Below, piece after piece: positions 15,765 through 62,991 of a DNA stretch of 64,000 nucleotides. Source of the stretch: Candidatus Zixiibacteriota bacterium (GTDB taxonomy: Bacteria; Zixibacteria; MSB-5A5; GN15; FEB-12). The notes beneath the pieces were generated by a model, which saw only the letters and a program-made list of their open reading frames with translations, was not told where the DNA came from and made no database searches. Numbering within the stretch: position 1 is the stretch's first letter; every line of letters begins with the position of its first letter. Location of the stretch: contig JAQUSF010000002.1 of assembly GCA_028715215.1 (NCBI GenBank), forward strand, positions 15 through 64,014, given 5' to 3'. Position numbers and translations under genes: made by a program.

Positions 15765-15787
15765 ACTGCTTTGTTAAGAATATCATG

Positions 15788-16611: not shown

Positions 16612-16633
16612 TAGTCTTTTAATTGTTTTTAGT

Positions 16634-16662: not shown

Positions 16663-16698
16663 TCTTAGTATATTGTAGAGAATGAACAAAGAGGTGCA

Positions 16699-18641: not shown

Positions 18642-18866
18642 TCAGGGACAGGGGGGCAGGTCCTTATGACTGAGATACAGATGGTCAATCAGGTAGGTTA
18701 TATCGGAGATATCCGGTTCACCTCCGGAAGCATCAACATCGGCTTCCTCGGGACAGCAAAGTTCATCATTGCTGATATATAAGAAATCAATCAACCGGGT
18801 GATATCGGAAATATCCGGTTCCTCGTTTTCAGAGCAGTCGGAGTTACCGGTCAGTTCGATACAGCA
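18642..18866 (-). repeat. Coding segment of the shared 74-aa Cys-rich dockerin-like CTD (copy 1, M14)
   Basis: [74 protein letters not shown], then stop. Confidence 0.9.
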
Positions 18867-21167: not shown

Positions 21168-21292
21168 AGAACCTCCGGAATTACTGATGATTTAAATAAT
21201 TCTACTGACTTCAACTTCCAACCGCTCTTGATGAGTATTATTTACATTTTAATAGACGTAGAATTTAATAAAATGTTTATTTTTTTATTATA

Positions 21293-21335
21293 AAATAAAG
21301 AGTTATCCCTTAGCAGGGGGATAACTCCTTTTTTA
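21293..21335. terminator. Rho-independent terminator downstream of the BNR gene
   Basis: The 10-bp stem GAGTTATCCC (21300-21309) / GGGATAACTC (21318-21327) has T-rich flanks on both strands. Confidence 0.75.
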
Positions 21336-21347
21336 TAACAGGTTTTT

Positions 21348-21572
21348 TTAAAAGCAGTCGGGCAGAGCTCTATGGCTGATATAGAGATGGTCAATGAGGT
21401 AAGTAATATCCGAGATGTCCGGTTCTTCGCCTACTTTATCGACATTGGCTTCATCGGGACAACAAAGCTCGGCATGAGAAATATATAGAAAATCAATCAG
21501 CCGGGTAATGTCGGAAATATCCGGTTCTTCGGTTTCGGAACAATCGACATTTCCGGTCACACCGATGCAGCA
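21348..21572 (-). repeat. Shared CTD coding segment (copy 2, BNR protein)
   Basis: [74 protein letters not shown], then stop. Confidence 0.9.
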
Positions 21573-24320: not shown

Positions 24321-24565
24321 ACACCCACCATTTGTAAATAATTTATTTTTATTTATAAACGAACTTTAATGAGCAACCTTTATATGAACCTATATAAGGT
24401 ACATCTATAAGTATGATAGCAGCTTCTTTTCTTACGAAAAAATGATTAAGAAGTTAAAAAAAATCCATACTATTAAGAACAATATATTAATAGACTCAAT
24501 AACGACAATTTGTGTTTAATGGTTTTTCCGGGGCGTAGATTTTGCGTTTTGAAGGTTTACTATAT

Positions 24566-24790
24566 TTACGGGCATTCCGGTAAGGGATTATGCGAGAGGT
24601 ACAAATGGTCGATTAAGAGAGTTATATCGGAAATATCGGGTCCGCCGCCGCTACCGTTGACATCGGCTTCCTCATAGCAGCACAAAGGCTTATGGGACAG
24701 GTAAAGGTGGTCAATCAGGGTGGTTATGTCGGAAATATCCGGAGCCTCGTTGGGAGAACAGTCAACATTGCCGGTGAATCCTATACAACA
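24566..24790 (-). repeat. Shared CTD coding segment (copy 3, FN3 protein)
   Basis: [74 protein letters not shown], then stop. Confidence 0.9.
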
Positions 24791-26002
24791 GTCCACTTTG
24801 GTAATATGAAAACACAGCGGTTCGGCATACCAGGCTGGTTTGACCGTGTCAACCGAACAGGAATTCGAACCAGTCCATCGCCATGTAAAAGCCGCCATGG
24901 GCATTGCGGTCGTATCAAATATCACTATTGTATCAATACATATTTGTTTGCCTATATCATCAGGAGCGGGTTTAATGGTAACTAAGAAAGCACGGTCATT
25001 AAAACCTTCATATAAACCGGGACCGCTCGTGGTTTGGGCGGCCAGGCCGACAGTATCGATTCCATCACCATCGCAACTGAAACAACCGAGGTTTACAGAA
25101 CTGAACTCGGTTTTGCCGATATTGACCGTATCTGCAAGAGTATAACTCCAGTGAGCGTCGTCGGGTGAATATACTTTTAAATTTAAGCTTATATTAAAGA
25201 AGCAATCGGTTTCACCGGATATATTTATTGCGCGGAAATAAAAGGTGACTTTTTTACCGGCGGCGATAGTGTCTTCAAAACCCAGCTCATTTTTCGGACC
25301 GGCGGCATTAGCAATACTGTCAAGGGTGATTTCCTGAATCCTTACATAGGCGGTGACAACCCCGGAATGAGGTGAAAAATTACCGGCCTGGTCCTGGGCG
25401 ATAACCAGGTAATTGAACCCCTCAGTCGGGTAAACATCATAATCGATATAAAAACTGTCAGCTATACCGGGGTCCGCCAGTGAACCGGCGGTATTGTCCA
25501 GACGAAAGAAGGAACCATTGGAACCGGCTGAACGGCGATAGAGATGGTAAGTAAGGCCGGGGAGAGCTGTCCAGTGGATTAAAATACTAGAAGTGTCAAG
25601 GGAACGAGCTCTTAGGTCGTCCGGTTTCGAAGGCCAGTTGACCGGGTTTAAGGTGACATTTTCTTGCTGGTAGGAATTGTGAGGAATCATTTTTTCCAGA
25701 TGAAAGCCTTCGCCGTTGTGATGATTAAAAAAGTAATAATCATAGGGATTATCCGGCGCCTCGGTAAGATAGTTTTGAAAATCATCATACCAGATAGTGT
25801 CATCATAACCGGCACCGTCACAGGTTTCTATTCTTAGCTCTTCATCGGTATCATCGAGGAAACCGAAAAAAGTAATATGGCTGTCAGCCGGGAAGGTTAA
25901 ATCGGCATTGGTAACCAGGCCATATATGGAGCCCTGCCCCAAAGCCGTTGAACCGAAAAAAAATAATAATCCGGTAAGTAATATCACAAGGGTTTTAAAC
26001 AT
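24566..26002 (-). CDS. Secreted protein with an FN3-like domain and the dockerin-like CTD; no catalytic domain recognised
   Basis: It has a signal peptide (LLFFFGSTALGQG), an FN3-like stretch (SILIHWTALPGLTYHLYRR) and the shared 74-aa CTD. Confidence 0.7.
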   Translation of the reverse strand: MFKTLVILLTGLLFFFGSTALGQGSIYGLVTNADLTFPADSHITFFGFLDDTDEELRIETCDGAGYDDTIWYDDFQNYLTEAPDNPYDYYFFNHHNGEGFHLEKMIPHNSYQQENVTLNPVNWPSKPDDLRARSLDTSSILIHWTALPGLTYHLYRRSAGSNGSFFRLDNTAGSLADPGIADSFYIDYDVYPTEGFNYLVIAQDQAGNFSPHSGVVTAYVRIQEITLDSIANAAGPKNELGFEDTIAAGKKVTFYFRAINISGETDCFFNISLNLKVYSPDDAHWSYTLADTVNIGKTEFSSVNLGCFSCDGDGIDTVGLAAQTTSGPGLYEGFNDRAFLVTIKPAPDDIGKQICIDTIVIFDTTAMPMAAFTWRWTGSNSCSVDTVKPAWYAEPLCFHITKVDCCIGFTGNVDCSPNEAPDISDITTLIDHLYLSHKPLCCYEEADVNGSGGGPDISDITLLIDHLYLSHNPLPECP

Positions 26003-26316
26003 ATCTTTTTTTACTATCGGTCGAAAATAGGGTTTTCAAACCCGGAGCAAGGAGTTTTGGTTTATGTTCACTTTAAAAAAGTTCTTCGTAAGTACCGTTT
26101 TTGGGTTTCCTGCCTGTTTTATAGTACGGAAGTAATATATTTTTGTCAATGCCAAGACTTCATATCGATTTAAACAAGGTAATTGATAAATTGTTCATTT
26201 TTTATACAAGTGTATTCAAATCATGAATATCGGGCGTTTCAAGCGGTATTAAGGAATAGCACAACCTTTCCGAAAAATAGAGGAAAGACAAGAAATAACC
26301 TCATTCAGGAGTTCCT

Positions 26317-28843: not shown

Positions 28844-28863
28844 GAAATTTTAGCTGACGGATA

Positions 28864-28906
28864 ATAAAAAAAGCCGCCTGGTTGATACTTCGGCGGCTTT
28901 TTTTAT
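28864..28906. terminator. Bidirectional rho-independent terminator
   Basis: The stem AAGCCGCC (28871-28878) / GGCGGCTT (28892-28899) is flanked by an A-run and a T-run, between convergent genes. Confidence 0.8.
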
Positions 28907-28918
28907 GATTGATTTCTT

Positions 28919-29143
28919 TTATGGGCAGTCCGGCAGCGCTTTGTGGGTCAGATAAAGGTGGTCTATCAGGTAAGTGATGTCGGAAATATCTGGTTCTCCT
29001 CCTGACCGGTCGACATCGGCTTCTGGCAGACAGCACAATTCCGTCTGACTGATATAAAGATAATCAATAAGGCGGGTAATGTCGGCGATATCCGGTTGGT
29101 CGGATTCGGAGCAATCGGCGTTCCCGGTCAGGCCCTGGCAACA
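28919..29143 (-). repeat. Shared CTD coding segment (copy 4, M14)
   Basis: [74 protein letters not shown], then stop. Confidence 0.9.
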
Positions 29144-31393
29144 GCTCTCACAGGCATCACCGATATTATCTTCATCGCTGTCAAGCTGATCCGGGTTATA
29201 GACATAGATGCAATTATCACAGCTGTCACCGACACCGTCGTCATCACTGTCTTCCTGAAGGGGATTCCCGTAAGTCAAACAGTTATCACAGCTGTCACCG
29301 ATACCGTCCTGGTCAGTGTCAAGCTGGTCAGGATTATAAATATCGGGGCAGTTATCGGTCGGGCAATCGTTTTCGGGGTATCCGGGGTCACCATAGTTGT
29401 CACCATCGGTATCAATACAGGTATACTCAAGATAAGCGGTGGTTTGTTTGATCCGGGAAAATTCACTCCACTGGCCTTCGGCGTCCTGCGCCCGCACTTT
29501 ATAATAGTAAGTCCCTTCCGGTCGGGAAGTAAAATGATAGAAGGTATCGATTATGTCAGAAGCGATAATATTTTCCACCTGATAGACATTGACCGGGTTA
29601 ATATCATCGAAATAAATACCTTCCTCGGTTACGTAGGAATCGGTCATGTAAGTTAATCGTATTGAAATTGTCTGGCCGGTGAAAGCGGACAGGTCAAATT
29701 TGGCTTCAACCCAGCCACCCGATACTCCGGTAATGCCGTTTCCGCGGTTGGCTCCATGGGGATTATAATTGGTAGTTATATTCCCCGCCAGAGGAGTATA
29801 ATTCTGGTGGTCAAGGGATGCTTCCACATAAGCGTAGTCGTAATTATTCTCGATATTATAATAAGTCCAGAATTTAAGACTGTCGCCTGCTTCAACATTG
29901 TAATCGTTTTTTGTGATTAAATAGATAAAGAGATTATTATTTATACCCGAATAAAAACTGGTAGTTGGTGAATGAGTCCTGGCGGATGAGAGAGAAAAAC
30001 CATTATTGACAAAATTATCAAAATTATCGGCGGAGTCAATAATTCGTTTATAATTCTGCAATTCGACCAGCTCATAGTTCACGGCCGGGTTTAAGGTGTC
30101 ATTGAGGGTCCATTCCACCAGATAGTCCTCGGCGTTGACGGTCGGGGGCAAAATAAGTTCCGGTTTTTCCGGGGCTTTCAGGGAATAAATATTGTCGGCA
30201 ATCCCGGCAAGGAACAAACAGGGAGCCAGGTTTTCCTGGACCAGCTGGGGAATTCTTATAACATCCGGCCAGAACTCGTCTATCTCATTGCCCACTTCGA
30301 TCGTAAAGGCAAAATTTTTATTCTTAAGGGTTTGTTCCCCGTAACCCCAGTCATCACTGTCGCCGTTGACAAGGTATAAAGTCCAGGAGGGGCCAGGGGT
30401 GTAGTAATTTCGAAGGAAGATACTGTCGCCCACAGCGGCGAAAATTTCTTCATCGGGAGTATAAATCCGTTCATAACCCCAGGGCCATAAAATTAGGTTG
30501 GAATAAGAATGAAAATAAAGGGTTATGGAAAAATTACGGGCGCTAATGAAATCCCGCATATTAACGGTTTCCGGTTCGGAAAAAGGACCGCTGCCGCGAT
30601 AGGTTTCAGATGATGTATTCGGGGAAGAACCGACGTTATCATATCCCCACTGGTATCCATAATTCCGGTTTAAGTCAACGCCATACGAACCGTTGCCGTT
30701 ATTCCGACGGTTTTTACGCCACATGCCGCCGCCGCCGGGATTGGTTACTTGATTATGGTAATAGCCATCAGGATTGACCATCAGGACAAACCAGAGTTCC
30801 CGGCTGTTCACCAGGTCATATATCTCGGAATTACTATCATAATTATTCAAGAGGTGGTCAATGAAGTAGGTCAGCACCTTGGGGGTGATAACTTCCCGGG
30901 CATGAATGGCGGCCGTATAAAGTACCTCCGGCTCATCTTCATCAAGGTTGGGATTATCGGATATTTTGAACGCCCACATATCGCGGTTTTCAATGGTTTT
31001 GCCGATGCTGACTTTAGCGGAAACCAGGTCCGGGCGGGCGGCAATAATCGAGTCTATATAATTATTAATTTCAGCCAGGGTATAATAACCACCCATATCT
31101 TTGGCCTCTTTATCCAGCCGTGACCGGTAAAAAGCCGACAGGTCCTTATGGATGGTTTCGGTTCGTAATTGTTGCGCCAGGATTTTATCCAGCTCGTATT
31201 TATCGGTTACGACATCGATATAATCCCGACCATACCATATTTCATCCAGGTCCAGGTTTTTAACCTTGTGATAGTCTTCTTTGCTGTCGATGAAAATTCG
31301 GACTTTCATTTTAGGGAGAATATCAGCCGACAGAAGCCCCAAAAACAAAAGACAGAACAAGACTGTAAAAACGGTGTATTTGTATGATTTCAT
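28919..31393 (-). CDS. Secreted M14 zinc carboxypeptidase, paralog of 18642..21167, with TSP type-3 repeats and the dockerin-like CTD
   Basis: It is collinear with 18642..21167 and shares [25 protein letters not shown], the TSP3 repeats and the shared CTD. Confidence 0.85.
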   Translation of the reverse strand: MKSYKYTVFTVLFCLLFLGLLSADILPKMKVRIFIDSKEDYHKVKNLDLDEIWYGRDYIDVVTDKYELDKILAQQLRTETIHKDLSAFYRSRLDKEAKDMGGYYTLAEINNYIDSIIAARPDLVSAKVSIGKTIENRDMWAFKISDNPNLDEDEPEVLYTAAIHAREVITPKVLTYFIDHLLNNYDSNSEIYDLVNSRELWFVLMVNPDGYYHNQVTNPGGGGMWRKNRRNNGNGSYGVDLNRNYGYQWGYDNVGSSPNTSSETYRGSGPFSEPETVNMRDFISARNFSITLYFHSYSNLILWPWGYERIYTPDEEIFAAVGDSIFLRNYYTPGPSWTLYLVNGDSDDWGYGEQTLKNKNFAFTIEVGNEIDEFWPDVIRIPQLVQENLAPCLFLAGIADNIYSLKAPEKPELILPPTVNAEDYLVEWTLNDTLNPAVNYELVELQNYKRIIDSADNFDNFVNNGFSLSSARTHSPTTSFYSGINNNLFIYLITKNDYNVEAGDSLKFWTYYNIENNYDYAYVEASLDHQNYTPLAGNITTNYNPHGANRGNGITGVSGGWVEAKFDLSAFTGQTISIRLTYMTDSYVTEEGIYFDDINPVNVYQVENIIASDIIDTFYHFTSRPEGTYYYKVRAQDAEGQWSEFSRIKQTTAYLEYTCIDTDGDNYGDPGYPENDCPTDNCPDIYNPDQLDTDQDGIGDSCDNCLTYGNPLQEDSDDDGVGDSCDNCIYVYNPDQLDSDEDNIGDACESCCQGLTGNADCSESDQPDIADITRLIDYLYISQTELCCLPEADVDRSGGEPDISDITYLIDHLYLTHKALPDCP

Positions 31394-44838: not shown

Positions 44839-45063
44839 TCATGGACAATTGGGCAGGGGGGTATGTGACAGATAAAGGAAATCTATCAGCCGCGTAATGT
44901 CGGATATATCCGGATCACCTCCGGAAACATCCACGTCGGCTTCATCGGGACAACAAAGAGGGTTGTGACTTAAATACAGATAATCGATCAAACGGGTAAT
45001 ATCGGAGATGTCAGGGTCTTCAACCTCGGAACAATCCACGTTGCCGGTTTGACCGATACAGCA
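44839..45063 (-). repeat. Shared CTD coding segment (copy 5, C10)
   Basis: [74 protein letters not shown], then stop. Confidence 0.9.
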
Positions 45064-46965
45064 ACCTTCGTAGTAATAAAGAATACTGCCAGATGATAAA
45101 GCCGGGGTGTAAGTTGCCAGCTCCCCATAGAATTTGGGTTCTAAAGTAATAGAAGTCGTGTAGCCGTCGAAGATGAGCAGGTTGGAATCATTGGGCGGGC
45201 CGGACGTGATGCTGAATTTCAAGATGATAAGCGGGCCGGTTCCGGGATCAAGCTCGGGGTCGCTGCCGACTTCGAAATTTAAAGTCATTCGTTTTTCGGA
45301 AGCGCTATAATTGAGATAACCCACATCCATATAATCCGCCCGACAGCCGGTAACGCTGTAACCCTTGTATGAGAGATTTAAATTACCGCCGTACTCAACC
45401 GGCAACTGAATGCGATACAGCGGAACATAATTGGTGATATGAATAGGGATTTCAAGGGTGGTGGCCAGAGGTCCTTGTACATGGGAACCTCTGATAGTAT
45501 CAGCCAGGGCAATAACATGATTTAATTTTTCGTAATAGAAAGAAGCCATGCCCGAATCTACTCTCAGTCCCACATCATAAATTCCGGGTGTCTGGTAGGT
45601 ATGCACAGGTTCCTGTATCATTGCCGAGTCACCGTCGCCAAAATACCATTTCCAGCCGGTCACGGCCTGAAGTTCCGAGGCGCCGAAGAAACTGACATCC
45701 AGCGGAACCCAGCCGATATTATTGGATGAGGTGAACATGGAACGTTTTTCAGGCATGATAAAACGCTGCATCGATTCATTGAGATAGTTGCAGCCTTCCA
45801 CGGCACAGTGAAGATTATCCACGGTATACCAGCCGTTGTAACTTCCACCCCAGCCATAATTCATATGATATTGATTCAGAGTACCGTTAACGCGCCAGCC
45901 GTCGCATACGATGGCATGGGCGTCAATCAAGTACATAATCGGTCGCCCCTGGTCGATTTCATCGGCTATCATGCCGAACCAGGAAGCGGGATCGTAAGAA
46001 CTGCGGTAAAAATTCATGACGATATCACGGTACTTGAAATAGTCCGAATAAACTGAATTGAACGGCCAGGTACCTGAACCGCAAGCACCGAAATCCATGT
46101 TAAAAGCTATCGCCACTTCGTAATTAAATTCCGCCAGGGCGTCGTTCTGAGCCTGAGTACAGCCGCCATCACAGTTATCGGGAATATTTGCCCAGTCATA
46201 GGGGTCATAAAAGGTTGCGCCCACAGTCAGACCGGGGGTGCTGCCTTCACAGGAATTATCGCCGTCCCACCAGTAAGAACGACTTCCCGTACCTTCCGGG
46301 GGCCACTGATGATACTTGAAAATCTGCGCGGCGGCGGTAGCAACACAGCCCACCACAGTCCTATCCCCATCACCATAGGGACATAAGTTGTTATACGGGT
46401 CGAACTGGTGCCAGCGCGAGGTCAAGAGCGGTCCGACCTGGGTGCTTTCCAGGCTGGTTTTAAAATCCAACCGCTTGGTGGTGTAGGAATCCCATTGGCG
46501 GCGGTGTTCCCGGCTAAATATTACTTCCCCCGAAGCTGGCTGGGCGGCTTCAAGAGAGCCGTAATTTTCAACGTAAACCCGAAGCAGTTTCTGAAGGATT
46601 TCACGCATCATCAGGGGGAAGCCGAACCGCTGGGTAATATCAAAATGGCCTTCGTCGGTATAAAATTTTACCGGTGCCATATCTTTCAATATCGGGATAA
46701 TTACGAAACCTTCGGGTGAAATGGAGTAGACCCTTCCCAGAAGGGTGTCATTTTCGATGATATCCTGAACGTCGGTTATTTGAGGATTGGTTACTCCGGC
46801 CCAACTGCCGTTTTGTGATACGATTTCAGCCAGCCAGTTCTCACAGACGAGTTCCATTTCTTCGGGAACGGCTGTTTCAGCGTTGGCTTGACCAAGCCAT
46901 AAAAAAGTCAATAAAATCGCCAGAAAAGTTGTTATTGACAGGTGGGAAATTGTTTTGGTCTTCAT
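44839..46965 (-). CDS. Secreted C10 (streptopain-like) cysteine peptidase: I69-like prodomain, C10 core, PKD domain, cohesin-like domain, dockerin-like CTD
   Basis: C10 motifs are LLTSRWHQFDPYNNLCP...VVGCVATAAAQI (catalytic Cys), HAIVCDGW (His) and MNYGWGG. The PKD-like stretch is WKWYFGDGDS...HTYQTPGIYDV. The shared CTD follows. Confidence 0.85.
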   Translation of the reverse strand: MKTKTISHLSITTFLAILLTFLWLGQANAETAVPEEMELVCENWLAEIVSQNGSWAGVTNPQITDVQDIIENDTLLGRVYSISPEGFVIIPILKDMAPVKFYTDEGHFDITQRFGFPLMMREILQKLLRVYVENYGSLEAAQPASGEVIFSREHRRQWDSYTTKRLDFKTSLESTQVGPLLTSRWHQFDPYNNLCPYGDGDRTVVGCVATAAAQIFKYHQWPPEGTGSRSYWWDGDNSCEGSTPGLTVGATFYDPYDWANIPDNCDGGCTQAQNDALAEFNYEVAIAFNMDFGACGSGTWPFNSVYSDYFKYRDIVMNFYRSSYDPASWFGMIADEIDQGRPIMYLIDAHAIVCDGWRVNGTLNQYHMNYGWGGSYNGWYTVDNLHCAVEGCNYLNESMQRFIMPEKRSMFTSSNNIGWVPLDVSFFGASELQAVTGWKWYFGDGDSAMIQEPVHTYQTPGIYDVGLRVDSGMASFYYEKLNHVIALADTIRGSHVQGPLATTLEIPIHITNYVPLYRIQLPVEYGGNLNLSYKGYSVTGCRADYMDVGYLNYSASEKRMTLNFEVGSDPELDPGTGPLIILKFSITSGPPNDSNLLIFDGYTTSITLEPKFYGELATYTPALSSGSILYYYEGCCIGQTGNVDCSEVEDPDISDITRLIDYLYLSHNPLCCPDEADVDVSGGDPDISDITRLIDFLYLSHTPLPNCP

Positions 46966-47087
46966 AAAAATAATACTCCCTTGCTCAAGTTAAGTTCAGG
47001 AAATTTAAGAAGTTACGTACCTGTTTGTACAGTAGTAATATATTGTAGAAGCGCTTATTTGTCAAGCATTTAACTCCGGTTGCACAA

Positions 47088-47123
47088 TAAAAAATGGCCG
47101 ACATATCATATATATTATCGGCC
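47088..47123 (-). terminator. Rho-independent terminator downstream of the orphan mini-ORF
   Basis: The stem GGCCGA (47096-47101) / TCGGCC (47118-47123) is followed on the minus strand by ATTTTTT. Confidence 0.55.
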
Positions 47124-47169
47124 TGTAATTTCTGCGTTTTAACATTAAGATTTACATAATCTTACTTCT

Positions 47170-47301
47170 TTATTGCGGTTCCTGCGTCAGCTCGAAGACA
47201 AAACAAGGTTTGACCGGCGGCGGCCCGGACAAATATAAAAAGTTAACCAGATGAGTAATGTCGGAAATATCGACAACCGAATCACAATTGCAATCGGCCA
47301 T
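47170..47301 (-). CDS. Orphan 43-codon ORF encoding a single dockerin-like half-module; gene relic or mini-protein
   Basis: Hand translation gives MADCNCDSVVDISDITHLVNFLYLSGPPPVKPCFVFELTQEPQ. The core VDISDITHLVNFLYLS matches the [16 protein letters not shown] repeat of the eight CTDs. There is no signal peptide. An in-frame stop lies 15 codons upstream of the ATG, and AAGGA lies just upstream. Confidence 0.35.
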   Translation of the reverse strand: MADCNCDSVVDISDITHLVNFLYLSGPPPVKPCFVFELTQEPQ

Positions 47302-48133
47302 TATCCTTTGTAGGGCAGAACCCTCTTGGTGGTTCTGACAATTTCTTTAATTTATTGTGTAATTTTTAAATATCCTTATATGTCTCCCCATATAAAATAG
47401 ACAGAACCGCTATAGGGTTCCACCTTACGAAAACTGGACAAGAGGCCGAATACATTTACTCCTTGGGTTGTATGTAAAGGATAAACAACAAGGTAGTAGC
47501 GCCAATAAAATATGTAATGTGATGACGGGTAATAACAGTATAAAATTATAAGCCTGATAAGCAGGTGTTATACAAAAATATATAGATACAATCTTGGAAG
47601 TAATAATAATTACGCCCCGAACCGGGGGGAGGGAGAAAACGATTCGGGGCGTTTATGACGGCTTTGATGTCGGTCCTTGCTTACAAATCCGACCGTCATG
47701 AATACAGTATAAATTCTATATTAATATTTACAATAAGACAATAATAGGTACTGACAAGGTATAAAAAATACCCATTTAAATTATCAGCAAAATTAAAATA
47801 AAAGTATCTCGAAAACAGTTAATTTTGCCAAATTCGTAATAGTAAAATATATTGGGATAGAAAATTACAAACATAATAATTGTGGTCGTAAGGCTATGTA
47901 ACACAATAACATAATATATTTATATTTTTATATTGCTTTTTTATGATGGTATTTATAGTATGAAATGAGTATTCGGAGTTCAAATCTGCCGCGGGGCTGG
48001 TACGTACTTCTTAAGATTTTATAGTGTCCGGTAAAAGTGTTTATTTTTTATACAGCTTGGCCGAAATAAAGAATATGGATATGTAAGTTTTTATTATCAA
48101 GTGAATATTAAGTATATTCAAGGAGATAATTAT

Positions 48134-48628
48134 ATGGAGAAGGAAATCAAAAGAAACGACTGGGCTAAATTTTGTAAGAAATTTAGCAGCACCAATCAGT
48201 ACCGTGAGGTAAAAATCAGGGTTCACGACAACCGTAAAAGAGAAATCAACCTGATTGAAACATTACCCTTCATGGGTATCACCCTGGCTAAAAAAGGGCG
48301 TCTTATCGACGGCCTGGAAATTTTCTCGGGGCGAGGAGATGCCGAGAAAATATTAGCGCCGGTAGCGTCATTCAAAGACCCGTTGAAGGTGTTTTTAAAA
48401 GCCGATGAAAACGGTTATGACAACCGGCTCAGGATTATAGGCAAAGATGGTTCGGAGATTGAAGTCGAACTTTATGGAGAGCCCGACCGCAATCGTCACT
48501 ACTGGCTGGTGGAAAAGGTCGCCTACTCGATGTTCGAGAGACGCGGCTACACCCAGGGTAATGACCAGGGTGACTGGCTGGAAGCTGAACGGAAAGTAAA
48601 AGAAGCGGAACTTCAATTTATCTCATGA
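48134..48628 (+). CDS. Hypothetical protein with a DUF2934-like C-terminal helix
   Basis: AGGAG (48121-48125) lies 8 nt upstream of ATG 48134. The C-terminal VAYSMFERRGYTQGNDQGDWLEAERKV fits the DUF2934 pattern. The N-terminal domain is unassigned. Confidence 0.6.
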   Translation: MEKEIKRNDWAKFCKKFSSTNQYREVKIRVHDNRKREINLIETLPFMGITLAKKGRLIDGLEIFSGRGDAEKILAPVASFKDPLKVFLKADENGYDNRLRIIGKDGSEIEVELYGEPDRNRHYWLVEKVAYSMFERRGYTQGNDQGDWLEAERKVKEAELQFIS

Positions 48629-48680
48629 TAAATTGACAGCCGTTGCCGATATCATCTTATAATATACATTTTTATGTAAT

Positions 48681-48714
48681 AAAAAACCGTCCCGGTGAGG
48701 GGACGGTTTTTTTT
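48681..48714. terminator. Bidirectional rho-independent terminator
   Basis: The stem ACCGTCCC (48686-48693) / GGGACGGT (48700-48707) is flanked by an A6 run and a T8 run. Confidence 0.8.
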
Positions 48715-48727
48715 AGTTTCTTATTTT

Positions 48728-48952
48728 TTACTGGCAGGGAGCCAGGGGGTCATTTGAAATATAAAGGTAATCGATAATGGCCGTAATGTCGGCGATATCC
48801 GGTTCACCGCCACTGCCATCACAGTCGGCTTCGTCCGGACAGCACAAGGGGGCATGACTGGTGTACAGGAAATCAATCAGGCGGGTGATGTCGGAGATAT
48901 CAGGTTCATCATTCGGGGAGCAATCGACATTACCGGTTAGACCCACACAACA
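48728..48952 (-). repeat. Shared CTD coding segment (copy 6, C10)
   Basis: [74 protein letters not shown], then stop. Confidence 0.9.
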
Positions 48953-50869
48953 ACCGGTATAGGTGACAACCCCCGGATAAAGACGAGGTTCGTAGTCGGC
49001 CAGGAAACTGTAGAACCAGGGGACGAAAGTATTGGCGCCATCGGTATAGCCGTCGATTTTTATAGAAGTGGTGTCAACTCCGGGTATGGAAGCGGAAAGG
49101 ATTTTGAATTTCAGGATAACGATCGGGCCGCGTCCGGGTTCAAGATCCGAAGTGGTGCCGATATTCATGTCGAGAGTAAAACACCTGGTGCTCCCGTTAT
49201 AGTGTAAATAATTAATTTCTTCAAAATTTTCCGTCCGGCAACCCGCCACGGAATAGCCCTGATATTTAAGATTTAGCGGGCCGTCGTATTTAACCGGTAA
49301 AATGATACGATTCAAGGGAGTGATGTTTGCGGCGATAATGGGAATATCCATTATGGAATCAAGCGGTCCTTCGACATCGGTACCTACTAATGAATCAGCC
49401 AGGGAAATAATGAAATCGGATTTGATATAAGAACGGATATCACCCTGGGCATTCACTTCCAGTTTGACATCATAGATACCCGGTTCTTCATAAAAGTGGG
49501 CTGGGTTTTGAACATTTCCCGAGTCACCGTCGCCGAACTCCCAGGTCCAGGTATCCACCGCCAACTCCGATTCGCCGATAAAGTTCACTTCAAAGGGCGC
49601 CCAGCCGATGGTGGTGTCAGCGGTAAAATTAACGCCCTTATCGGGAACGATATACCTGATAAGAAATTCCACCATGGGATTACATCCTTCCCAGTTACAG
49701 TGCAGGTTATCAACCGTGAACCAGGCATTGTAACTGCCGCCCCAGCCGTAATTCATATGCACTTGGTTGAGCTCTTCGACCTGTTGCCAGCCGTCGCAGA
49801 CGATGGAATGATTACTGATACGATATTGCATCGGGCGTTCGGTGTCGATTTCCGAGGCGATAGTGTAAAACCACGAGGCGGCGGAATGCATGTTGCGGTC
49901 TTCCCGGTCGATAATATCGAGATAGCGGAAATAGGTGGGGAAAACATACAGCGCATCGGCCGTATATGCTCCGGATCCGCAATAACCGTATTCCATATTA
50001 AAAGCCACGCCGACTTCGTAACATAGCTCCGCCAGGGCATTACGCTGGGCTTCGTTACAGTTGGTGCAGTAATCAGGCATGTTAGCCCAGTCATAAGAAT
50101 CGGAATAATCGGCTTCCAGGGTAGCGCCGCTGGAACTGCCTTCACAGGACATGTCGCCGCTCCAGTAATAACTGTGCTGACCCGTGCCTTCAGGCGGCCA
50201 ATCATGGTAAGCCAGGATCTGGGCGGTTGCTGTCGCCACGCAACCGACCAGTGTCCGACCGCCGTCGCCCCAGGGACAGAAGTTGTTATAGGGCGCATTC
50301 TGGTGCCAGCGGGTGGTTAGAAGAGGTCCCGCGGTGGTGATGGAGCTGGACTTTTTCCCCAGATTACTTTTAAATTCAGTGTGGGTCACGGTCAGGTCGG
50401 ACCATTTTTTTCGCTCAGCGGTGAAACTTGTTTCATTATTCCGGGCTGTCGAATATTCAAGAGTGCCGTAGCGGTCAACAAAATTGCGCACCCGGTTTTG
50501 CAAAACCTCCCTGACCAGCGCCGGGAAACCGTCGGGTTCATCCACGTCGTAAAAACCTTCATCGGAATAGACTTCTACCGGAGGAAGCTCCTTCAAAACC
50601 GGAACAATGATATAACCTTCCGGTGCGACGGCATAGACCCGGCCTAACAGCGTATCGTTAACAATAATATCATCGACCCTGTCAATTTTGGGATTGGTTA
50701 CCGATGACCAGTTCGTCTTTGCGAAGGTAATTTGAGTGAGCCAGTTGTGGCTGACTAAATCCATTTCATCAACAGTAGCTTTTTCCGCCAGAGGAGCGGT
50801 TACAAATAGAAATAAAAGACTTAATAATAGTGAGGGGATAATTACCGGCAGGATAATGTTTTTACTCAT
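48728..50869 (-). CDS. Secreted C10 cysteine peptidase paralog: prodomain, C10 core, PKD domain, cohesin-like domain, dockerin-like CTD
   Basis: It carries LLTTRWHQNAPYNNFCP...LVGCVATATAQI, HSIVCDGW, MNYGWGG and WTWEFGDGDS...GIYDV, followed by the shared CTD. An AGGGAG RBS is present. Confidence 0.85.
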   Translation of the reverse strand: MSKNIILPVIIPSLLLSLLFLFVTAPLAEKATVDEMDLVSHNWLTQITFAKTNWSSVTNPKIDRVDDIIVNDTLLGRVYAVAPEGYIIVPVLKELPPVEVYSDEGFYDVDEPDGFPALVREVLQNRVRNFVDRYGTLEYSTARNNETSFTAERKKWSDLTVTHTEFKSNLGKKSSSITTAGPLLTTRWHQNAPYNNFCPWGDGGRTLVGCVATATAQILAYHDWPPEGTGQHSYYWSGDMSCEGSSSGATLEADYSDSYDWANMPDYCTNCNEAQRNALAELCYEVGVAFNMEYGYCGSGAYTADALYVFPTYFRYLDIIDREDRNMHSAASWFYTIASEIDTERPMQYRISNHSIVCDGWQQVEELNQVHMNYGWGGSYNAWFTVDNLHCNWEGCNPMVEFLIRYIVPDKGVNFTADTTIGWAPFEVNFIGESELAVDTWTWEFGDGDSGNVQNPAHFYEEPGIYDVKLEVNAQGDIRSYIKSDFIISLADSLVGTDVEGPLDSIMDIPIIAANITPLNRIILPVKYDGPLNLKYQGYSVAGCRTENFEEINYLHYNGSTRCFTLDMNIGTTSDLEPGRGPIVILKFKILSASIPGVDTTSIKIDGYTDGANTFVPWFYSFLADYEPRLYPGVVTYTGCCVGLTGNVDCSPNDEPDISDITRLIDFLYTSHAPLCCPDEADCDGSGGEPDIADITAIIDYLYISNDPLAPCQ

Positions 50870-51027
50870 GATAAACGGACTCCCTTTGCAATATATTCCG
50901 TGCTTCTGTTATTATTGACATTACATTAAGATGCAAGTCATGTAAATACCGCAATTATTATATAATAACGGTCACTTTCGATTTATGGTTGGTGAAATAA
51001 ATCAACTTATCAGTTTTTCAGTTTCCT

Positions 51028-51255
51028 TTATAACGGGCACTCGACAACCGGATCATGTGACAGGTAAAGAAAATTTATTAAAGCCGTAATATCCGAGATA
51101 TCAGGGGTACCGCCGCTCCCGTCGCAATCAGCTTCGTCGGGGCAACAGAGCGGTGCATGACTGGTGTACAGAAAATCGATCAGGCGGGTGATGTCGGCAA
51201 TATCAGGTTCCTCTGTCTCAGAACAATCAACATTTCCCGTCATACCTTGACAACA
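51028..51255 (-). repeat. Shared CTD coding segment (copy 7, C10)
   Basis: [75 protein letters not shown], then stop. Confidence 0.9.
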
Positions 51256-53280
51256 GCCGGTGCTGGTTATCAAGCCGGAAATAAGGACTGGTTCATACTG
51301 ATTTTCATAACCATAAAATTGAGTCAAAAAAGTGGTGGTCGTAGTGTAGCCGTCAAAAATAATATCAGTTGCACTGTTTTTAGCGGCGGCGGAATCGATT
51401 TCAAAACTTAGTTTAATAACAGGGCCGCTGCCGGGGGATAAAACCGTACTGGAGCCGGCTTCCATATTGATTGTCAGGCGCTTGTTGCCGGTGTCGTAAC
51501 TTAAATATGAAATATCGTTAAAACCTTCCGTACGGCAACCTTCGCTCGAAAAGCCCTTATATTTAAGAGAAACCGGACCGGAATATTCAACCGGCATCTG
51601 AAGCCGCTGGAGGGGAATATTGTTGATGGCGTTAACTGTAAACTCGACAATGCTCCCGGAAGTACTTTCTACATGATTACCCCTTAAAGTATCAGCCAGA
51701 ACGATAATAAAATCCGATTGGGCAAAGAAACGATTTTCACCACCGGTTACAATATCAAGCCTGACGTCAAAAACACCGGGCGTAAGGTAGATATGGATCG
51801 GCGATTGTTCCGAAGAATATTCGCCGTCACCGAAATCCCAGTTCCAGGATTCCACCTCGAGTTCCGAGAGACCTTCGAAATTGACTTCAAAAGGCACCCA
51901 ACCGAAGGTCGTGTCGGCCGTAAACTGAACGCCCTGGTCAGGGATAATATCGCGGAATAAAAATTCCGACAGATAACTGCAACCGTCCCAGTTGCAATAA
52001 GTGTTATCCAGGGTGAACCAGGCATTGTAACTGCCGCCCCAGCCGTAATTCATATGATATTGATTGATATCGCCGATAGTCTGCCAGCCGTCGCAGACAA
52101 TGGCATGACGGGAGATAAAATACTCCATGACATATCCGGAATTAATCTGACTTTTAATCAGGTTGAACCAGGACATGGCGGTATGGTTGTCGCGGTCTTC
52201 CCGGTCGATGGTGTTCATATAGCGAAAATGCTCATGAAAAGCCTGCATGACAAAATTAATCTGGGATAAGTAAATAGCGGAGCCGCAACGGCCATAATCC
52301 ATATGAAAAGCAACCCCGACTTCATAATTTAACTCCGCCAGGGCATTCTGTTGTTCGATAGTGCAGCCGCTGCAGTAGTCGATCATGTTGGGCCAGTCAT
52401 AAGGGTCGCTGAAATCAGCCGTGAGGCGCTGGCCGTCGGATGAACCGCCGCAGGAAAAATCACCCGTCCAGGTATAACTTTCGCTGCCTTCGCCTGAAGG
52501 TGGCCACTGGTAGTAGGCAAAAATCTGAGCTGCCGCCGTGGCGACACAGCCAACCACCGTTCGCCCGCCATCGCCCATGGGACAGTAGTTATTGTAAGGT
52601 GCGTTTTGGTGCCAGCGAGTTGTCAGTAACGGTCCAACGGTTTCATCGGTTGCCGTTACAGACTTATTCAGTTGTCGCGAAAAGACCGCTTCCGGCACTG
52701 CATAATTATCCCATTGTTCACGGTGCCTCTTATCGAGGAAAAGGTCTCCCTCTTCAGGTTGCAGAGCTTCCAGGCTGCCATAGCGATTTACAAAAACTCT
52801 TGTCCGGTCGAGGAGCACCTCTTTTATCATTTGCGGATAGCCGGGGTCATCCAGGTTGAAATAACCTTCATCAGTATAGACTTTTACGGGTGGCAGGTCT
52901 TTCAGAACCGGGACAATTATAAAACCATCGGGATCGATATTGTAGCAGAGTGCCAGGAGCGTATCATTCTCTTTTATTTCCACAATATCAGCGACTTTAG
53001 GATTAAATTGCCCGGCCCATTCTCCTTTATTATGGACAATTTTTGTCAGCCAGTTATTGCATACAAGATTCATTTCATCCACTGCAGCGGTTTCGGCATG
53101 TATCCTGGGGATAAATAAAAATATTACCAGGCAGAGGTAAATTGTGATTATGGGAAGCCTGACAGTATAAAAAAGCTGTCTGGTCTTATTTGGAGAAGCA
53201 AGGCTCTTAATGGTCCGGTGATACATGGGGAACCCTTTCATTGGTGTCTTATTTTTTATATTATTGACGTAATTTTTCAC
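51028..53280 (-). CDS. Secreted C10 cysteine peptidase paralog: prodomain, C10 core, PKD domain, cohesin-like domain, dockerin-like CTD
   Basis: It carries LLTTRWHQNAPYNNYCP...VVGCVATAAAQI, HAIVCDGW and MNYGWGG, with a PKD-like stretch and the shared CTD. The start is uncertain, with candidate Met codons at 53280, 53241 and 53226. Confidence 0.8.
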   Translation of the reverse strand: MKNYVNNIKNKTPMKGFPMYHRTIKSLASPNKTRQLFYTVRLPIITIYLCLVIFLFIPRIHAETAAVDEMNLVCNNWLTKIVHNKGEWAGQFNPKVADIVEIKENDTLLALCYNIDPDGFIIVPVLKDLPPVKVYTDEGYFNLDDPGYPQMIKEVLLDRTRVFVNRYGSLEALQPEEGDLFLDKRHREQWDNYAVPEAVFSRQLNKSVTATDETVGPLLTTRWHQNAPYNNYCPMGDGGRTVVGCVATAAAQIFAYYQWPPSGEGSESYTWTGDFSCGGSSDGQRLTADFSDPYDWPNMIDYCSGCTIEQQNALAELNYEVGVAFHMDYGRCGSAIYLSQINFVMQAFHEHFRYMNTIDREDRDNHTAMSWFNLIKSQINSGYVMEYFISRHAIVCDGWQTIGDINQYHMNYGWGGSYNAWFTLDNTYCNWDGCSYLSEFLFRDIIPDQGVQFTADTTFGWVPFEVNFEGLSELEVESWNWDFGDGEYSSEQSPIHIYLTPGVFDVRLDIVTGGENRFFAQSDFIIVLADTLRGNHVESTSGSIVEFTVNAINNIPLQRLQMPVEYSGPVSLKYKGFSSEGCRTEGFNDISYLSYDTGNKRLTINMEAGSSTVLSPGSGPVIKLSFEIDSAAAKNSATDIIFDGYTTTTTFLTQFYGYENQYEPVLISGLITSTGCCQGMTGNVDCSETEEPDIADITRLIDFLYTSHAPLCCPDEADCDGSGGTPDISDITALINFLYLSHDPVVECPL

Positions 53281-53567: not shown

Positions 53568-53792
53568 TTATGGACATGAAGGCAAGGGATTTTGATCAAT
53601 ATACAGATGGTCAATCAACCTGGTTATATCAGAAATATCCGGAGTACCCCCGTTGCCGTCACAATCTGCTTCCAGGGGACAACAAAGGGGTATCTGTGAA
53701 ATGTAGAGAAAGTCAATGAGCCTTGTAATATCGACTATGTCAGGTTCTTCGCTTTCGGAACAATCGACATTGCCCCGATAATCAATACAACA
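53568..53792 (-). repeat. Shared CTD coding segment (copy 8, C25)
   Basis: [74 protein letters not shown], then stop. Confidence 0.9.
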
Positions 53793-56291
53793 GCAGGCAT
53801 CCCCAATCAGGTCATTATTGGCATCTTCCTGGCCGGGATTGTAATCCTCCGGACAATTGTCGCATATGTCACCATAACCGTCTCCATCCAAATCTTCCTG
53901 CAGCGGATTTGCCAGTTCCGGGCAGTTGTCGCAGGCATCACCTACGCCATCACTGTCCTGGTCTTCCTGGCCGGAATTTGGCACGGCTGGACAATTATCG
54001 CAGGCGTCGCCCTGAAGGTCACCATCCTGATTAAGCTGGTCGGTATTGCTGACCGCCGGACAGTTATCGCAAATGTCTCCGACACCGTCATCATCACTAT
54101 CCGCCTGGTCGGGGTTGGTTATAGTCGGGCAGTTGTCGCAGGCATCGCCGAACTCGTCTTCGTCACTATTGGTTTGGGTTGGATTGAATATCAAAGGACA
54201 GTTGTCTTCAGTATCAATAATCCCGTCATTGTCACTGTCCGGCGCTTCGGTAACCGTAACCGTCGCCTGGTGCGGAACGAAATTCTGACGGGTAACGGTA
54301 ACAAACATATCACCGCCCGTTGCCAGGGACAGACTAAAAGTGGCGTTACCATCGGTTCCGGTGTTTTGAGTAGCATAAATTTCATCGCCTTTCCATAGAC
54401 AAACGAAAGCGTTGGAAAGATCGTTGCCACTATTATTTTCGACATGGACGGTGAAAGTCGGCTGCGATACCGGTATTTCAGCGGGGTGGCTGACGCTAAA
54501 TAGGGCCGGAATATCTGTCCAGATAGGCATTTCGGGTTCACCCAGAAGATTGAGGGTCCATTGCACGTAGTGCCAGCTGGAAGTGGAAGGGTTGTTGTTT
54601 TTAGTCCAGGCCAGAGCCTGTCCGAGGCGATACTGGTTCTGTTGAAAAAGCCCGCGCCACCAGTAGATGTCCAGCTGGCTGGACAGGGAGTTGGGGTCGC
54701 CGATATAAAACCAGCCGCTGCGGGTATTGCCGGTAAAAGCTACCGCGCCCTGAAGATGATTATAGATAACAAAACGCTCGGCGATACAGTCGTTGTAATC
54801 CATTTCATTGGGGTGACAGCCGATTGAAAAAATAACACTGAGACGATTATTGTTGACGAGATTATCGACGTCGGAATTGGTAAATATGGCTCCGTGATTT
54901 AAATAACCGATACCCATCAGAGTGGTGTTGCTGTGGTCGCAGTGGTTAACAAGATTTTGCCCGGCATTGAGAGAATTGATTAAGTCGGTTTTATGGGATG
55001 TGGCGTCGGAATCGTATATTTTCGTAACGTTGAAACGGGCGGGGATGTAATTATGATCAATATTCTCCTTCATAACTTCACCAGCGGTCAGGGTGTAATA
55101 AGGAGGTTCCGAAGCCAGTGTCAGGTCCATCCCGACCAGATTGGCATCAAGAGCGAAATTATCCAGAGGCGGGTTGGTTTCATAAAGGAGGAGTTTACTG
55201 ATAAAGATGCTGATCTGGGTGGCTCCTTCAGCCGTAACCCGACCGACGAAAACCTCATAATCCCAGTCGTCATCGTAATCGCCGTAATAAGCATCGCTGG
55301 GGATGGATTCGCTATCATAGGTACGGTACACAAAAGGTACGGTGGAGTGTTCGCCGCCTATAAGAAAATATATCGTTCCCCAGGTATTGTGGGCATCGAT
55401 GACAAAATTCCTGATTTTTTCCTGGTTGGTGCTGCCGCTATAGGCGGCGTAGATATCGGTGGTGGTAACCACCGTGTCCCGGACTCCCTTGCGGGTATGC
55501 CAGGTAACAAGAGGTTGATAGTTGGTGACATAGGCTGATGAAGTAATAATAACATGGGGATATTGACCCGGCGGAAGCAGGGCGGCGGCTTTCTCAATCG
55601 AAGTATTCATTTCCAAAGTGACTTTTTCAGGGTTAACCACCATCGCCCGGACGATATTCTCATATTGCACTTTTATTTCCGGCTGGATATTAGGCGACAG
55701 GTAATCACCGCAGATATAACCTGCCTCGCCCTCGATTATAAAACTTATCGTTTCATGAAATATTAGTCTGTTTTCGGCGGGGATATATTGTAAAGGATAA
55801 AGCATCACTTTGGCCATACTCTGACCGGCCAGGTCGCTCTGTCCAACCAGTTCGACAATCTTTTCGGGATAGGGAGCCAGGGATGAATAGACCGACGCGT
55901 CGGCTTCGGTAAAGGCGAGTTCATCCGGTGAATATCCAATTTTAACCGGTTTTTGCGATGGCAGGATATGGTATCGGCCATCAAGATTTATCGTTGAAAC
56001 CTGGCTTATTTTTACGCCGGTAGCTTTCATACCCTGCGGGAGAGCGATTTTTATCTCCCGGGCTGGAAGCCAGGGTTTACCGGTAACAGCCAGGTATTGG
56101 CTGCCCTTTATTCGTACTACATCGTAGTCCAGAACCCGGTCAAAAGTAAAATCGCCGGTTGAAAAAGAAACATTACAGGTTTCTTCGAATTTAGCACCGA
56201 TATTCTGAGAACCGGCTGAACTGCTTAAAAAAAACATTAACAAGAAGATGATAAATAGCGATGCTGTTGAGTTTTTTCTGGAGATAGTCAT
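53568..56291 (-). CDS. Secreted C25 (gingipain-like) cysteine peptidase with seven TSP type-3 repeats and the dockerin-like CTD
   Basis: It has a signal peptide. The C25-like core includes HVIITSS...[32 protein letters not shown] (His) and FSIGCHPNE (Cys). The TSP3 array lies at 53793..54239 and the shared CTD follows. Confidence 0.75.
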
Positions 56292-61246: not shown

Positions 61247-61263
61247 TGTCTTTTTCCTTCCGT

Positions 61264-62715: not shown

Positions 62716-62991
62716 GGCCGGCACCCTTTCATGATATTTTATATTCCCGTATGATTCACCGTATTGTCCCAGAAGTGTGAACCTTCAAGAATTTACTTTC
62801 TTCCGGTAATTATAAGCCGAAAATATATGGTAAGATGGCTAAAAAGTAAATAAGAGTATTAACAAAAAAGTATTGTCAATTCCGGTCACTTTGTTTTTTG
62901 ACGCCGGATGGGGCAAAAAATGGGATTACTTATCACCGGGCTACGGGAGCAGCTCTTGATTTAACGAAAGGAGGTTTTCTAAAGGCAAACT

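What the first reader, a model, noticed from the sequence alone, without database searches (positions are those of the whole stretch)
44839..53280. The three C10 peptidases carry a cohesin-like beta-sandwich immediately upstream of the dockerin-like CTD, suggesting self-assembly
Seen in the sequence: each C10 paralog has a ~148-150 aa segment between its PKD domain and its CTD. The coordinates are 45064..45507, 48953..49402 and 51256..51699. A representative pattern is ...GSHVQGPLATTLEIPIHITNYVPLYRIQLPVEYGGNLNLSYKGYSVTGC....MTLNFEVGSDPELDPGTGPLIILKFSITSG....LLIFDGY....

Established knowledge: cohesin modules are ~140-aa beta-sandwiches. Their recurrent sequence logic is a strand ending in '.iPV.l.n...i..f.f.l.YD...L', then a variable middle, then 'G.G.l..i.F.v......'.

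Inference: the segment looks cohesin-like. Cohesin and dockerin-like modules in one polypeptide would allow head-to-tail polymerisation or recruitment of the other CTD-bearing enzymes (M14, C25, BNR), forming a cellulosome-style 'peptidosome'. This rests on my pattern reading only.
Basis: inference. Interest (0 to 1): 0.7.

Follow-up and report, generated by a model that had tools for sequence, protein, structure and literature searches.

The report
Cohesin–dockerin cassette on C10 peptidases
Three secreted cysteine peptidases of a Zixibacteria genome each end in a hidden cohesin module fused directly to a hidden dockerin module, the two parts that build cellulosomes. These enzymes probably link to each other and to neighbouring hydrolases, but no binding has been shown.

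Summary
All three C10 paralogs carry a 148-150 aa segment at the stated coordinates, between a PKD domain and a 75 aa Cys-rich C-terminal domain (CTD).

The cohesin reading holds:
- Pfam, NCBIfam and PDB sequence searches find nothing directly in the segment.
- A profile built from the three window segments alone finds 354 protein clusters. One of them, P0130, has four tandem copies that Pfam calls Cohesin (E 2e-21), followed by a T9SS sorting domain.
- An AlphaFold2 model of segment plus CTD has pLDDT 95.7. Its top 50 Foldseek PDB hits are all cohesins (E 4e-9 to 7e-6).

The CTD is a divergent dockerin with conserved cysteines. It matches homolog tails that Pfam scores as Dockerin_1 (hhalign 98.5%), and those tails match 27 solved dockerins.

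In 73 of 73 full-length homologs the unit is PKD–cohesin–dockerin, mostly on peptidases (C10, C1, C25, S8 and others).

Whether the cohesin binds these dockerins in trans, as in Ruminococcus bromii Amy4, or packs against its own dockerin was not testable here. This is a new variant of a known kind, of moderate interest.

The parts
44839..46965 (-). C10 paralog 1 (708 aa): signal peptide, pro-region, C10, PKD, cohesin, dockerin
   Evidence: ORF; Pfam C10 E 2e-46 and PKD; NCBI name 'C10 family peptidase [Zixibacteria]'
45064..45507 (-). Divergent cohesin module of paralog 1 (148 aa)
   Evidence: Translation; AF2 pLDDT 95.7; Foldseek top 50 all cohesins; profile link to P0130
44842..45063 (-). 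Divergent Cys-rich dockerin of paralog 1 (74 aa, two near-identical repeats)
   Evidence: (E 3e-10 against an HMM of Dockerin_1-positive tails); two 13-residue helices plus a short one
45508..45768 (-). PKD domain of paralog 1 (approximate limits)
   Evidence: Pfam PKD_4 E 4e-10, aa 434-471
45826..46413 (-). Peptidase C10 catalytic domain of paralog 1
   Evidence: Pfam aa 185-380; interpain and streptopain matches
48728..50869 (-). C10 paralog 2 (713 aa), same architecture
48953..49402 (-). Divergent cohesin module of paralog 2 (150 aa)
   Evidence: A3 HMM E 1e-46
48731..48952 (-). Dockerin of paralog 2
51028..53280 (-). C10 paralog 3 (750 aa as listed; the true start is probably downstream)
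   Evidence: the exact 750-aa sequence is not in the collection
51256..51699 (-). Divergent cohesin module of paralog 3 (148 aa)
   Evidence: A3 HMM E 5e-51
51031..51255 (-). Dockerin of paralog 3
53571..53801 (-). Dockerin of the C25 (gingipain-family) peptidase; candidate ligand
28922..29152 (-). Dockerin of M14 carboxypeptidase b; candidate ligand
24569..24799 (-). Dockerin of the 478-aa protein of unknown family; candidate ligand
21351..21581 (-). Dockerin of the sortilin/BNR protein; candidate ligand
18645..18875 (-). Dockerin of M14 carboxypeptidase a; candidate ligand

Best explanation
Each C10 peptidase ends in a PKD–cohesin–dockerin cassette. Shown: the 148-150 aa segment is a genuine but very divergent cohesin module, and the 75 aa CTD is a divergent dockerin with two almost identical repeats and six conserved cysteines. 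Inferred: the cohesin is a receptor for the near-identical dockerins carried by the eight secreted hydrolases of this locus and by many other Zixibacteria proteins. Under that reading each C10 enzyme is a one-cohesin mini-scaffoldin or adaptor. Its cohesin can hold the dockerin of another C10 (head-to-tail chains or reciprocal dimers) or of a dockerin-only enzyme (M14, C25, sortilin/BNR). Its own dockerin can plug the assembly into a further cohesin, for example a multi-cohesin, T9SS-anchored scaffoldin of the P0130 type. The outcome would be a cellulosome-style complex specialised in protein degradation.
For: Fold: AF2 of segment plus CTD with a 46-sequence alignment gives pLDDT 95.7 and pTM 0.78. 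The top 50 Foldseek PDB hits are all cohesins, E 4e-9 to 7e-6, TM 0.66-0.79 on the single-module cohesin chains and lower on multi-module chains.
Homology: the three-sequence window profile hits P0130 at E 1.8e-16 with 4 stretches. P0130 is Pfam Cohesin at E 2e-21 plus Por_Secre_tail. hhalign of family A3 against P0130 gives 96.9%, E 2e-10. 10 of 57 family members touch PF00963. The top 3 PDB sequence hits of the profile are cohesins, colinear with the profile.
Dockerin: homolog tails are PF00404 (21 of 73). An HMM of those tails hits all 8 window CTDs at E 2e-11 to 1e-8. hhalign gives 98.5%. The same tails match 27 solved dockerins.
Independent modules: P0130 has four cohesins and no dockerin. 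P0022 and P0064 have the cohesin and dockerin separated by 150-250 aa that include TSP3 repeats. Five of the 8 window dockerins have no cohesin. The dockerins are 70-85% identical across unrelated proteins. Their two repeats are 11-16 of 17 identical, the symmetry typical of dual-binding-mode type I dockerins that bind in trans.
Precedent: the R. bromii Amy4 cohesin binds its own and other enzymes' dockerins (PMC4611034). A cellulosome-like complex with dockerin-bearing S8 and C25 peptidases and a cohesin scaffoldin carrying a conserved C-terminal cell-surface attachment domain was inferred in Cloacimonadota (PMC8542988).
Against: No binding was predicted or measured. In about 90% of homologs the dockerin follows the cohesin with essentially no linker (tails 65-82 aa). 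AF2 treats the pair as one body (pTM 0.78). P0178 and its neighbour repeat the pair as a unit. These points all fit a cis-packed dyad equally well. The window cohesins are only 46-47% identical to each other while the dockerins are 71-77% identical. No multi-cohesin scaffoldin lies in the window, and P0130's organism is unknown. The Ca-loops of the window dockerins carry 1-2 residue insertions relative to the canonical 12-residue loop (read directly from the sequence).
Confidence: 0.5

Rival explanations
1. Rigid cis dyad, analogous to X-Doc. The cohesin-fold module has lost trans binding and serves as a structural buttress for the dockerin fused to it. The dyad as a whole docks onto separate cohesins elsewhere, on scaffoldins not in this window.
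For: There is essentially no linker, and the tail is 65-82 aa in about 140 of 150 representatives. PKD–Coh–Doc is invariant in 73 of 73 homologs. pTM 0.78 for the two-module model. The dyad is duplicated as a unit in P0178 and the neighbouring gene in L003. X-Doc dyads are established in cellulosomes, including on a cysteine peptidase (review PMC12484212).
Against: The fold is cohesin, not the Ig-like X module. Relatives exist with cohesins alone (P0130) or with TSP3 repeats between cohesin and dockerin. Both dockerin repeats are equally conserved, which is unexpected if one helix were permanently buried in cis.
Confidence: 0.27
2. Cis self-capping. The cohesin binds its own dockerin through the canonical interface, keeping the enzyme monomeric or latent until the cap is displaced or cleaved.
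For: Same adjacency and pTM evidence as for the cis dyad. C10 peptidases are made as zymogens (PDB zymogen matches), so staged activation is plausible.
Against: The five dockerin-only proteins would have no partner in the window.
Confidence: 0.08
3. A cohesin-fold module with a different ligand, such as a glycan, a cell-surface component or a substrate protein, and unrelated to dockerin binding.
For: The window segments fall below every Pfam threshold. The motifs GCR[TS] and DGY are conserved family-wide, but their location in the structure was not examined.
Against: The module co-occurs with a dockerin in nearly all of the 150 representatives listed. P0130 combines the same subfamily with a scaffoldin-like layout.
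Confidence: 0.1
4. A plain Ig/PKD-type spacer, with a chance resemblance to cohesins.
For: No direct Pfam, NCBIfam or PDB sequence hit for the window segments.
Against: all point to cohesin. No Ig, PKD or CBM fold appears among the top 50 structural matches.
Confidence: 0.03

Closest known systems
Ruminococcus bromii Amy4 (amylosome enzyme carrying both a cohesin and a dockerin)
   Same: A secreted hydrolase has one cohesin and one C-terminal dockerin on the catalytic polypeptide. It sits among several dockerin-only enzymes. In Amy4 the cohesin was shown to bind its own dockerin and those of Amy9 and Amy10, predicting multimers (PMC4611034).
   Different: Amy4 is a GH13 amylase in a Firmicute with canonical, Pfam-detectable modules. 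Here the enzymes are C10 peptidases in Zixibacteria. The modules are too divergent for Pfam, the cohesin is fused directly to the dockerin behind a PKD domain, and binding is untested.
Non-cellulosomal cohesin of Archaeoglobus fulgidus (PDB 2xdh)
   Same: It is among the best structural matches (Foldseek E 6e-9, TM 0.79) and the best PDB sequence match of the family profile. It is a cohesin outside any cellulose-degrading context. From my own recollection, the parent protein AF2375 also carries a dockerin.
   Different: It is archaeal and not attached to a peptidase. Sequence identity to the window segment is only 16%.
Predicted cellulosome-like complex of Ca. Stygibacter (Cloacimonadota)
   Same: Signal-peptide-bearing S8 and C25 peptidases carry C-terminal dockerins. 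A scaffoldin with tandem cohesins carries a conserved C-terminal domain for cell-surface attachment (PMC8542988). That layout resembles the P0130 architecture.
   Different: There the cohesins sit on a giant non-catalytic scaffoldin. Here a single cohesin sits on each enzyme, immediately before its dockerin.
X-module–dockerin (X-Doc) dyads of cellulosomes (CipA, R. flavefaciens ScaA, CttA, a cysteine peptidase)
   Same: A beta-sandwich module lies immediately N-terminal to a dockerin and forms a conserved two-module unit. One example is on a papain-like peptidase.
   Different: X modules are Ig-like, not cohesin-fold. X-Doc dockerins are asymmetric, whereas these are highly symmetric.

Membership tests
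Cohesin (Pfam PF00963) | A beta-sandwich of about 140 aa with the cohesin jelly-roll topology | tested here: met
   AF2 pLDDT 95.7 with strands spanning residues 4-144. Foldseek top 50 PDB hits are all cohesins, probability 1.00, E down to 4e-9.
Cohesin (Pfam PF00963) | Direct match of the window segments to the Pfam model above its gathering score | tested here: not met
   No Cohesin hit even at E<=10 for the three segments. None in the full proteins.
Cohesin (Pfam PF00963) | Homology by profile transitivity to accepted cohesins | tested here: met
   Window-only profile to P0130, E 1.8e-16. P0130 to PF00963, E 2e-21 and 77 bits against a cutoff of 24. hhalign 96.9%. 10 of 57 members touch PF00963.
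Cohesin (Pfam PF00963) | Binds a dockerin, typically Ca2+-dependently | not testable with these tools
Dockerin (Pfam PF00404) | Duplicated segment of about 22 residues, each a loop followed by a helix | tested here: met
   The two repeats are 11-16 of 17 identical in the helix core. AF2 gives helices 167-179 and 201-213 plus a short helix 187-190.
Dockerin (Pfam PF00404) | Sequence-profile membership | tested here: met
   The direct Pfam scan is negative. However, an HMM of PF00404-positive homolog tails hits all 8 CTDs at E 2e-11 to 1e-8. hhalign gives 98.5%, E 4e-15. The same tails match 27 solved dockerins, best E 8e-9.
Dockerin (Pfam PF00404) | Canonical 12-residue EF-hand-like Ca2+ loop | tested here: inconclusive
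   The sequence shows acidic loops (NVDCSxxExPD, ADVDxSGGxPD) that are 1-2 residues longer than canonical. Ca2+ binding was not tested.
Amy4-type self-binding enzyme | Cohesin and dockerin on the same catalytic polypeptide | tested here: met
Amy4-type self-binding enzyme | The cohesin recognises its own dockerin | not testable with these tools
   Needs AF-Multimer or a binding assay.
Scaffoldin | Several cohesins on one, usually non-catalytic, polypeptide | tested here: not met
   There is one cohesin per C10 protein and no other copy in the window.
X-Doc dyad | An Ig-like X module abutting the dockerin | tested here: not met
   Adjacency is met, but the fold is cohesin, not an X module.
T9SS C-terminal sorting domain | Match to Por_Secre_tail or the NCBIfam T9SS sorting-domain model at the C-terminus | tested here: not met
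   No such hit in the C10 or C25 proteins, the isolated C10 CTDs, the C10 proteins against NCBIfam, or the M14, sortilin/BNR and 478-aa proteins. The CTD is helical.

The most novel reading that the evidence does not exclude
The PKD–cohesin–dockerin cassette is a self-polymerising unit. Zixibacteria would then build scaffoldin-free, enzyme-only extracellular networks in which every peptidase is both building block and catalyst. These networks would recruit dockerin-only carboxypeptidases and gingipain-like enzymes, giving a dedicated protein-degrading counterpart of the cellulosome. Non-catalytic (Coh–Doc)2 proteins, as in L003, would act as cross-linkers.
Probability: 0.3. Interest if true: 0.7.

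Novelty: new variant of a known kind. Interest (0 to 1): 0.5.

Why it matters
Cohesin–dockerin assembly is the textbook way bacteria organise extracellular enzymes, but it is studied almost entirely in Firmicutes that degrade polysaccharides.

This work finds a cohesin subfamily that standard domain models do not detect in the window proteins. NCBI names those proteins only 'C10 family peptidase' and names homologs 'PKD domain-containing protein'. The subfamily comprises 354 clusters at 50% identity and is always built as PKD–cohesin–dockerin. It sits mostly on peptidases of at least eight families.

If the modules bind as their relatives do, uncultured sediment bacteria assemble proteolytic complexes by the cellulosome principle, with enzymes acting as their own scaffolds.

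It would also supply a compact dockerin with conserved cysteines and a matching cohesin for protein engineering. No paper in the searchable library holds 'Zixibacteria' together with 'cohesin' or 'dockerin'.

Tried and rejected
- Direct Pfam, NCBIfam and PDB sequence scans of the segments and CTDs gave nothing useful. There was one spurious repeat match of the CTD profile to a designer PPR protein.
- A word-indexed homolog search with segment 1 alone found nothing. With the 57-sequence segment profile it found only 7 proteins.
- AF2 on the three-sequence alignment was too poor to use, at pLDDT 52.
- Model coordinates cannot be read. I therefore could not determine which face of the cohesin the dockerin packs against.
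- Mean-field DCA on 157 dyad sequences was dominated by gap-rich columns and is not interpretable. I draw no inter-domain contact conclusions from it.
- The genome-contig scan failed with the broad profile. With the narrow profile it returned only 2 loci, so it gave no taxonomic census and no scaffoldin search in complete genomes.
- I considered that the conserved Cys55 of the cohesin staples it to the dockerin, and rejected this. Sequences lacking Cys55 keep an even set of dockerin cysteines. Cys55 is therefore the odd one out and probably a buried free thiol.


Full report
**What is there**

The region holds three minus-strand paralogs at 44839-46965, 48728-50869 and 51028-53280. Each has a signal peptide, a Peptidase_C10 domain (Pfam E 1e-45 to 1e-48) and a PKD domain. 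The closest solved relatives are interpain A and streptopain.

The segments are 46-47% identical to each other. Eight ORFs of the window end in the same CTD of about 75 aa: two M14 carboxypeptidases, a sortilin/BNR protein, a 478-aa protein of unknown family, the three C10 paralogs and a C25 peptidase.

NCBI holds two of the proteins as 'C10 family peptidase [candidate division Zixibacteria bacterium]' on a 64,752-bp contig.

**The segment is a cohesin**

Direct searches are blind to the segment:
- Pfam at E<=10 gives nothing.
- NCBIfam gives nothing.
- PDB sequence profiles give nothing.
- A word-indexed homolog search gives nothing.

An exhaustive HMMER search with a profile built only from the three window segments found 354 cluster representatives at E<=1e-3, and 224 at E<=1e-10.

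One hit, P0130 (E 1.8e-16, four matched stretches), is the link to accepted cohesins. Pfam scores it as Cohesin at E 2e-21, which is 77 bits against a cutoff of 24. It ends in a T9SS Por_Secre_tail domain, so it has a scaffoldin-like layout. hhalign of the 57-member family alignment against P0130 gives 96.9% probability and E 2e-10.

Other sequence evidence agrees:
- Ten of 57 family members individually touch PF00963, best E 1e-4.
- The three best PDB sequence matches of the family profile are all cohesins (2xdh, 5nrm, 5nrk).

The structure settles it. With only 3 sequences AF2 failed, at pLDDT 52. With a 46-sequence alignment of segment plus CTD it gave pLDDT 95.7 and pTM 0.78. The model has a beta-sandwich spanning residues 4-144 followed by a small helical module. 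The 50 best Foldseek matches in the PDB are all cohesins of types I, II and III, plus the A. fulgidus and C. perfringens non-cellulosomal ones. Their E-values run from 4e-9 to 7e-6, with TM 0.66-0.79 relative to the single-module cohesin chains. No Ig, PKD or CBM fold appears among them.

**The CTD is a dockerin**

In the homologs, the 65-82 aa tail that follows the segment grades from the window's Cys-rich form to canonical sequences such as GDVDDNGAVNILDITGLISFLYKGG. Pfam scores many of these tails as Dockerin_1 (21 of 73).

The chain from the window CTDs to solved dockerins has three links:
- An HMM built only from Dockerin_1-positive tails hits all eight window CTDs over its full length, at E 2e-11 to 1e-8.
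- hhalign of the window CTDs against those tails gives 98.5% probability and E 4e-15.
- The same tails match 27 solved dockerins, best E 8e-9.

The two repeats of each window dockerin are 11-16 of 17 identical in the helix core.

Cysteine positions 150 and 221 are nearly universal in the family. Positions 149 and 186 occur at the same frequency (66% each) and mostly together. The window subtype adds 159 and 185. The likely reading is two or three disulfides stapling the dockerin, including its N- and C-termini. This is an inference from co-occurrence only.

**A conserved cassette**

In about 140 of the 150 listed representatives the cohesin is followed directly by the dockerin. In 73 of 73 full-length homologs a PKD domain precedes it.

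The N-terminal parts are mostly peptidases. Counts among the 73 are C10 18, C1 8, C25 4, S8 4, trypsin-like 3, M4 2, M28 2 and M43 2. SGL (9) and FG-GAP (4) proteins also occur.

Several variants are informative:
- P0130 has four cohesins and a T9SS tail, with no dockerin.
- P0022 and P0064 have cohesin and dockerin separated by 150-250 aa that include TSP3 repeats.
- P0176 reads, on inspection of its sequence, as dockerin–cohesin–dockerin. The A3 profile confirms its central cohesin and its C-terminus is of the window type. Its N-terminal dockerin got no Pfam hit.
- P0178 and its neighbouring gene are non-catalytic (cohesin–dockerin)2 proteins.

Source names place the family mainly in Zixibacteria.

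**How it most likely works**

Shown: fold and family membership of both modules, their fusion, the cassette, and the surplus of dockerins (8) over cohesins (3) in this proteolytic locus.

Inferred: the cohesin is the receptor for the locus's near-identical dockerins. C10 enzymes would then chain to each other and carry dockerin-only enzymes, while their own dockerin connects onward. Four points support this:
- Cohesins and dockerins of this subfamily also occur apart.
- Dockerins are 70-85% identical across unrelated proteins, as in organisms where many enzymes share one cohesin specificity.
- The two dockerin repeats are symmetric.
- There is an experimental precedent in R. bromii Amy4, whose cohesin binds its own and other enzymes' dockerins. 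A similar prediction exists for Cloacimonadota peptidases.

**Novelty and verdict**

Cohesins, dockerins, dockerin-bearing peptidases and an enzyme with both modules are all known. Three things appear new:
- A cohesin subfamily that Pfam and NCBIfam do not detect in the window proteins.
- Its obligatory PKD–cohesin–dockerin cassette on peptidases.
- Its occurrence in Zixibacteria, for which the searchable literature holds no paper mentioning cohesin or dockerin.

I rate it a new variant of a known kind, interest 0.5. The self-assembly idea remains a reasonable, directly testable hypothesis, at roughly even odds.

Noticed in passing
window 47170-47301 (-): An orphan 43-aa ORF, 'MADCNCDSVVDISDITHLVNFLYLSGPPPVKPC...', encodes a single dockerin repeat. 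It scores E 4e-10 against the canonical-tail HMM. It lies between C10 paralog 1 and a DUF2934 gene and is probably the remnant of a decayed dockerin-bearing gene.
   Followed up: partly
window 51028-53280 (-), N-terminus: The listed GTG start gives about 50 residues ahead of the signal-peptide-like hydrophobic stretch. The exact 750-aa product is absent from the protein collection, whereas paralogs 1 and 2 are present. The real start is probably an internal Met.
   Followed up: no
L001 (CAZUAS010000029.1) vs window 45064-45507: A locus 97% identical to the cohesin of paralog 1 sits in a MAG titled 'uncultured Ignavibacteriales bacterium'. NCBI assigns the window's own proteins to Zixibacteria. 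One of the two bins or labels is probably wrong.
   Followed up: no
L003 8309-9883 and 10001-11452 (+); dockerin-bearing PhoD gene at 15560-17032 (-): In a distant relative (GCA_964592145.1), two adjacent non-catalytic genes each encode cohesin–dockerin–cohesin–dockerin. They lie next to a dockerin-bearing PhoD phosphatase. They are possible cross-linker proteins.
   Followed up: partly
window cohesin residue 55-56 (e.g. nt 45340-45345 in paralog 1): The motif G-C-R-[TS] is nearly invariant across the family, with Cys at 89% and Arg invariant in the 57-sequence family alignment A3. The Cys has no conserved partner: sequences lacking it keep an even number of dockerin cysteines. Its role is unknown.
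   Followed up: partly
window 18642-31393 and 53568-56291 (-): In four of the five dockerin-only proteins (two M14, sortilin/BNR and C25) the dockerin is preceded by thrombospondin type-3 style Asp-rich repeats instead of PKD–cohesin. This gives two alternative 'stalks' for the same dockerin (sequences; TSP_3 reported by Pfam for three of them).
   Followed up: partly
window 59801-62724 (-): Two tandem C1-like (bleomycin-hydrolase-type, PF03051) aminopeptidases carry no dockerin. They add to a strongly proteolytic gene neighbourhood.
   Followed up: no
window 31629-33086 (+): An MttB-family trimethylamine methyltransferase homolog (E 3e-73) lies amid the peptidase genes. I did not check for an in-frame pyrrolysine codon.
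   Followed up: no
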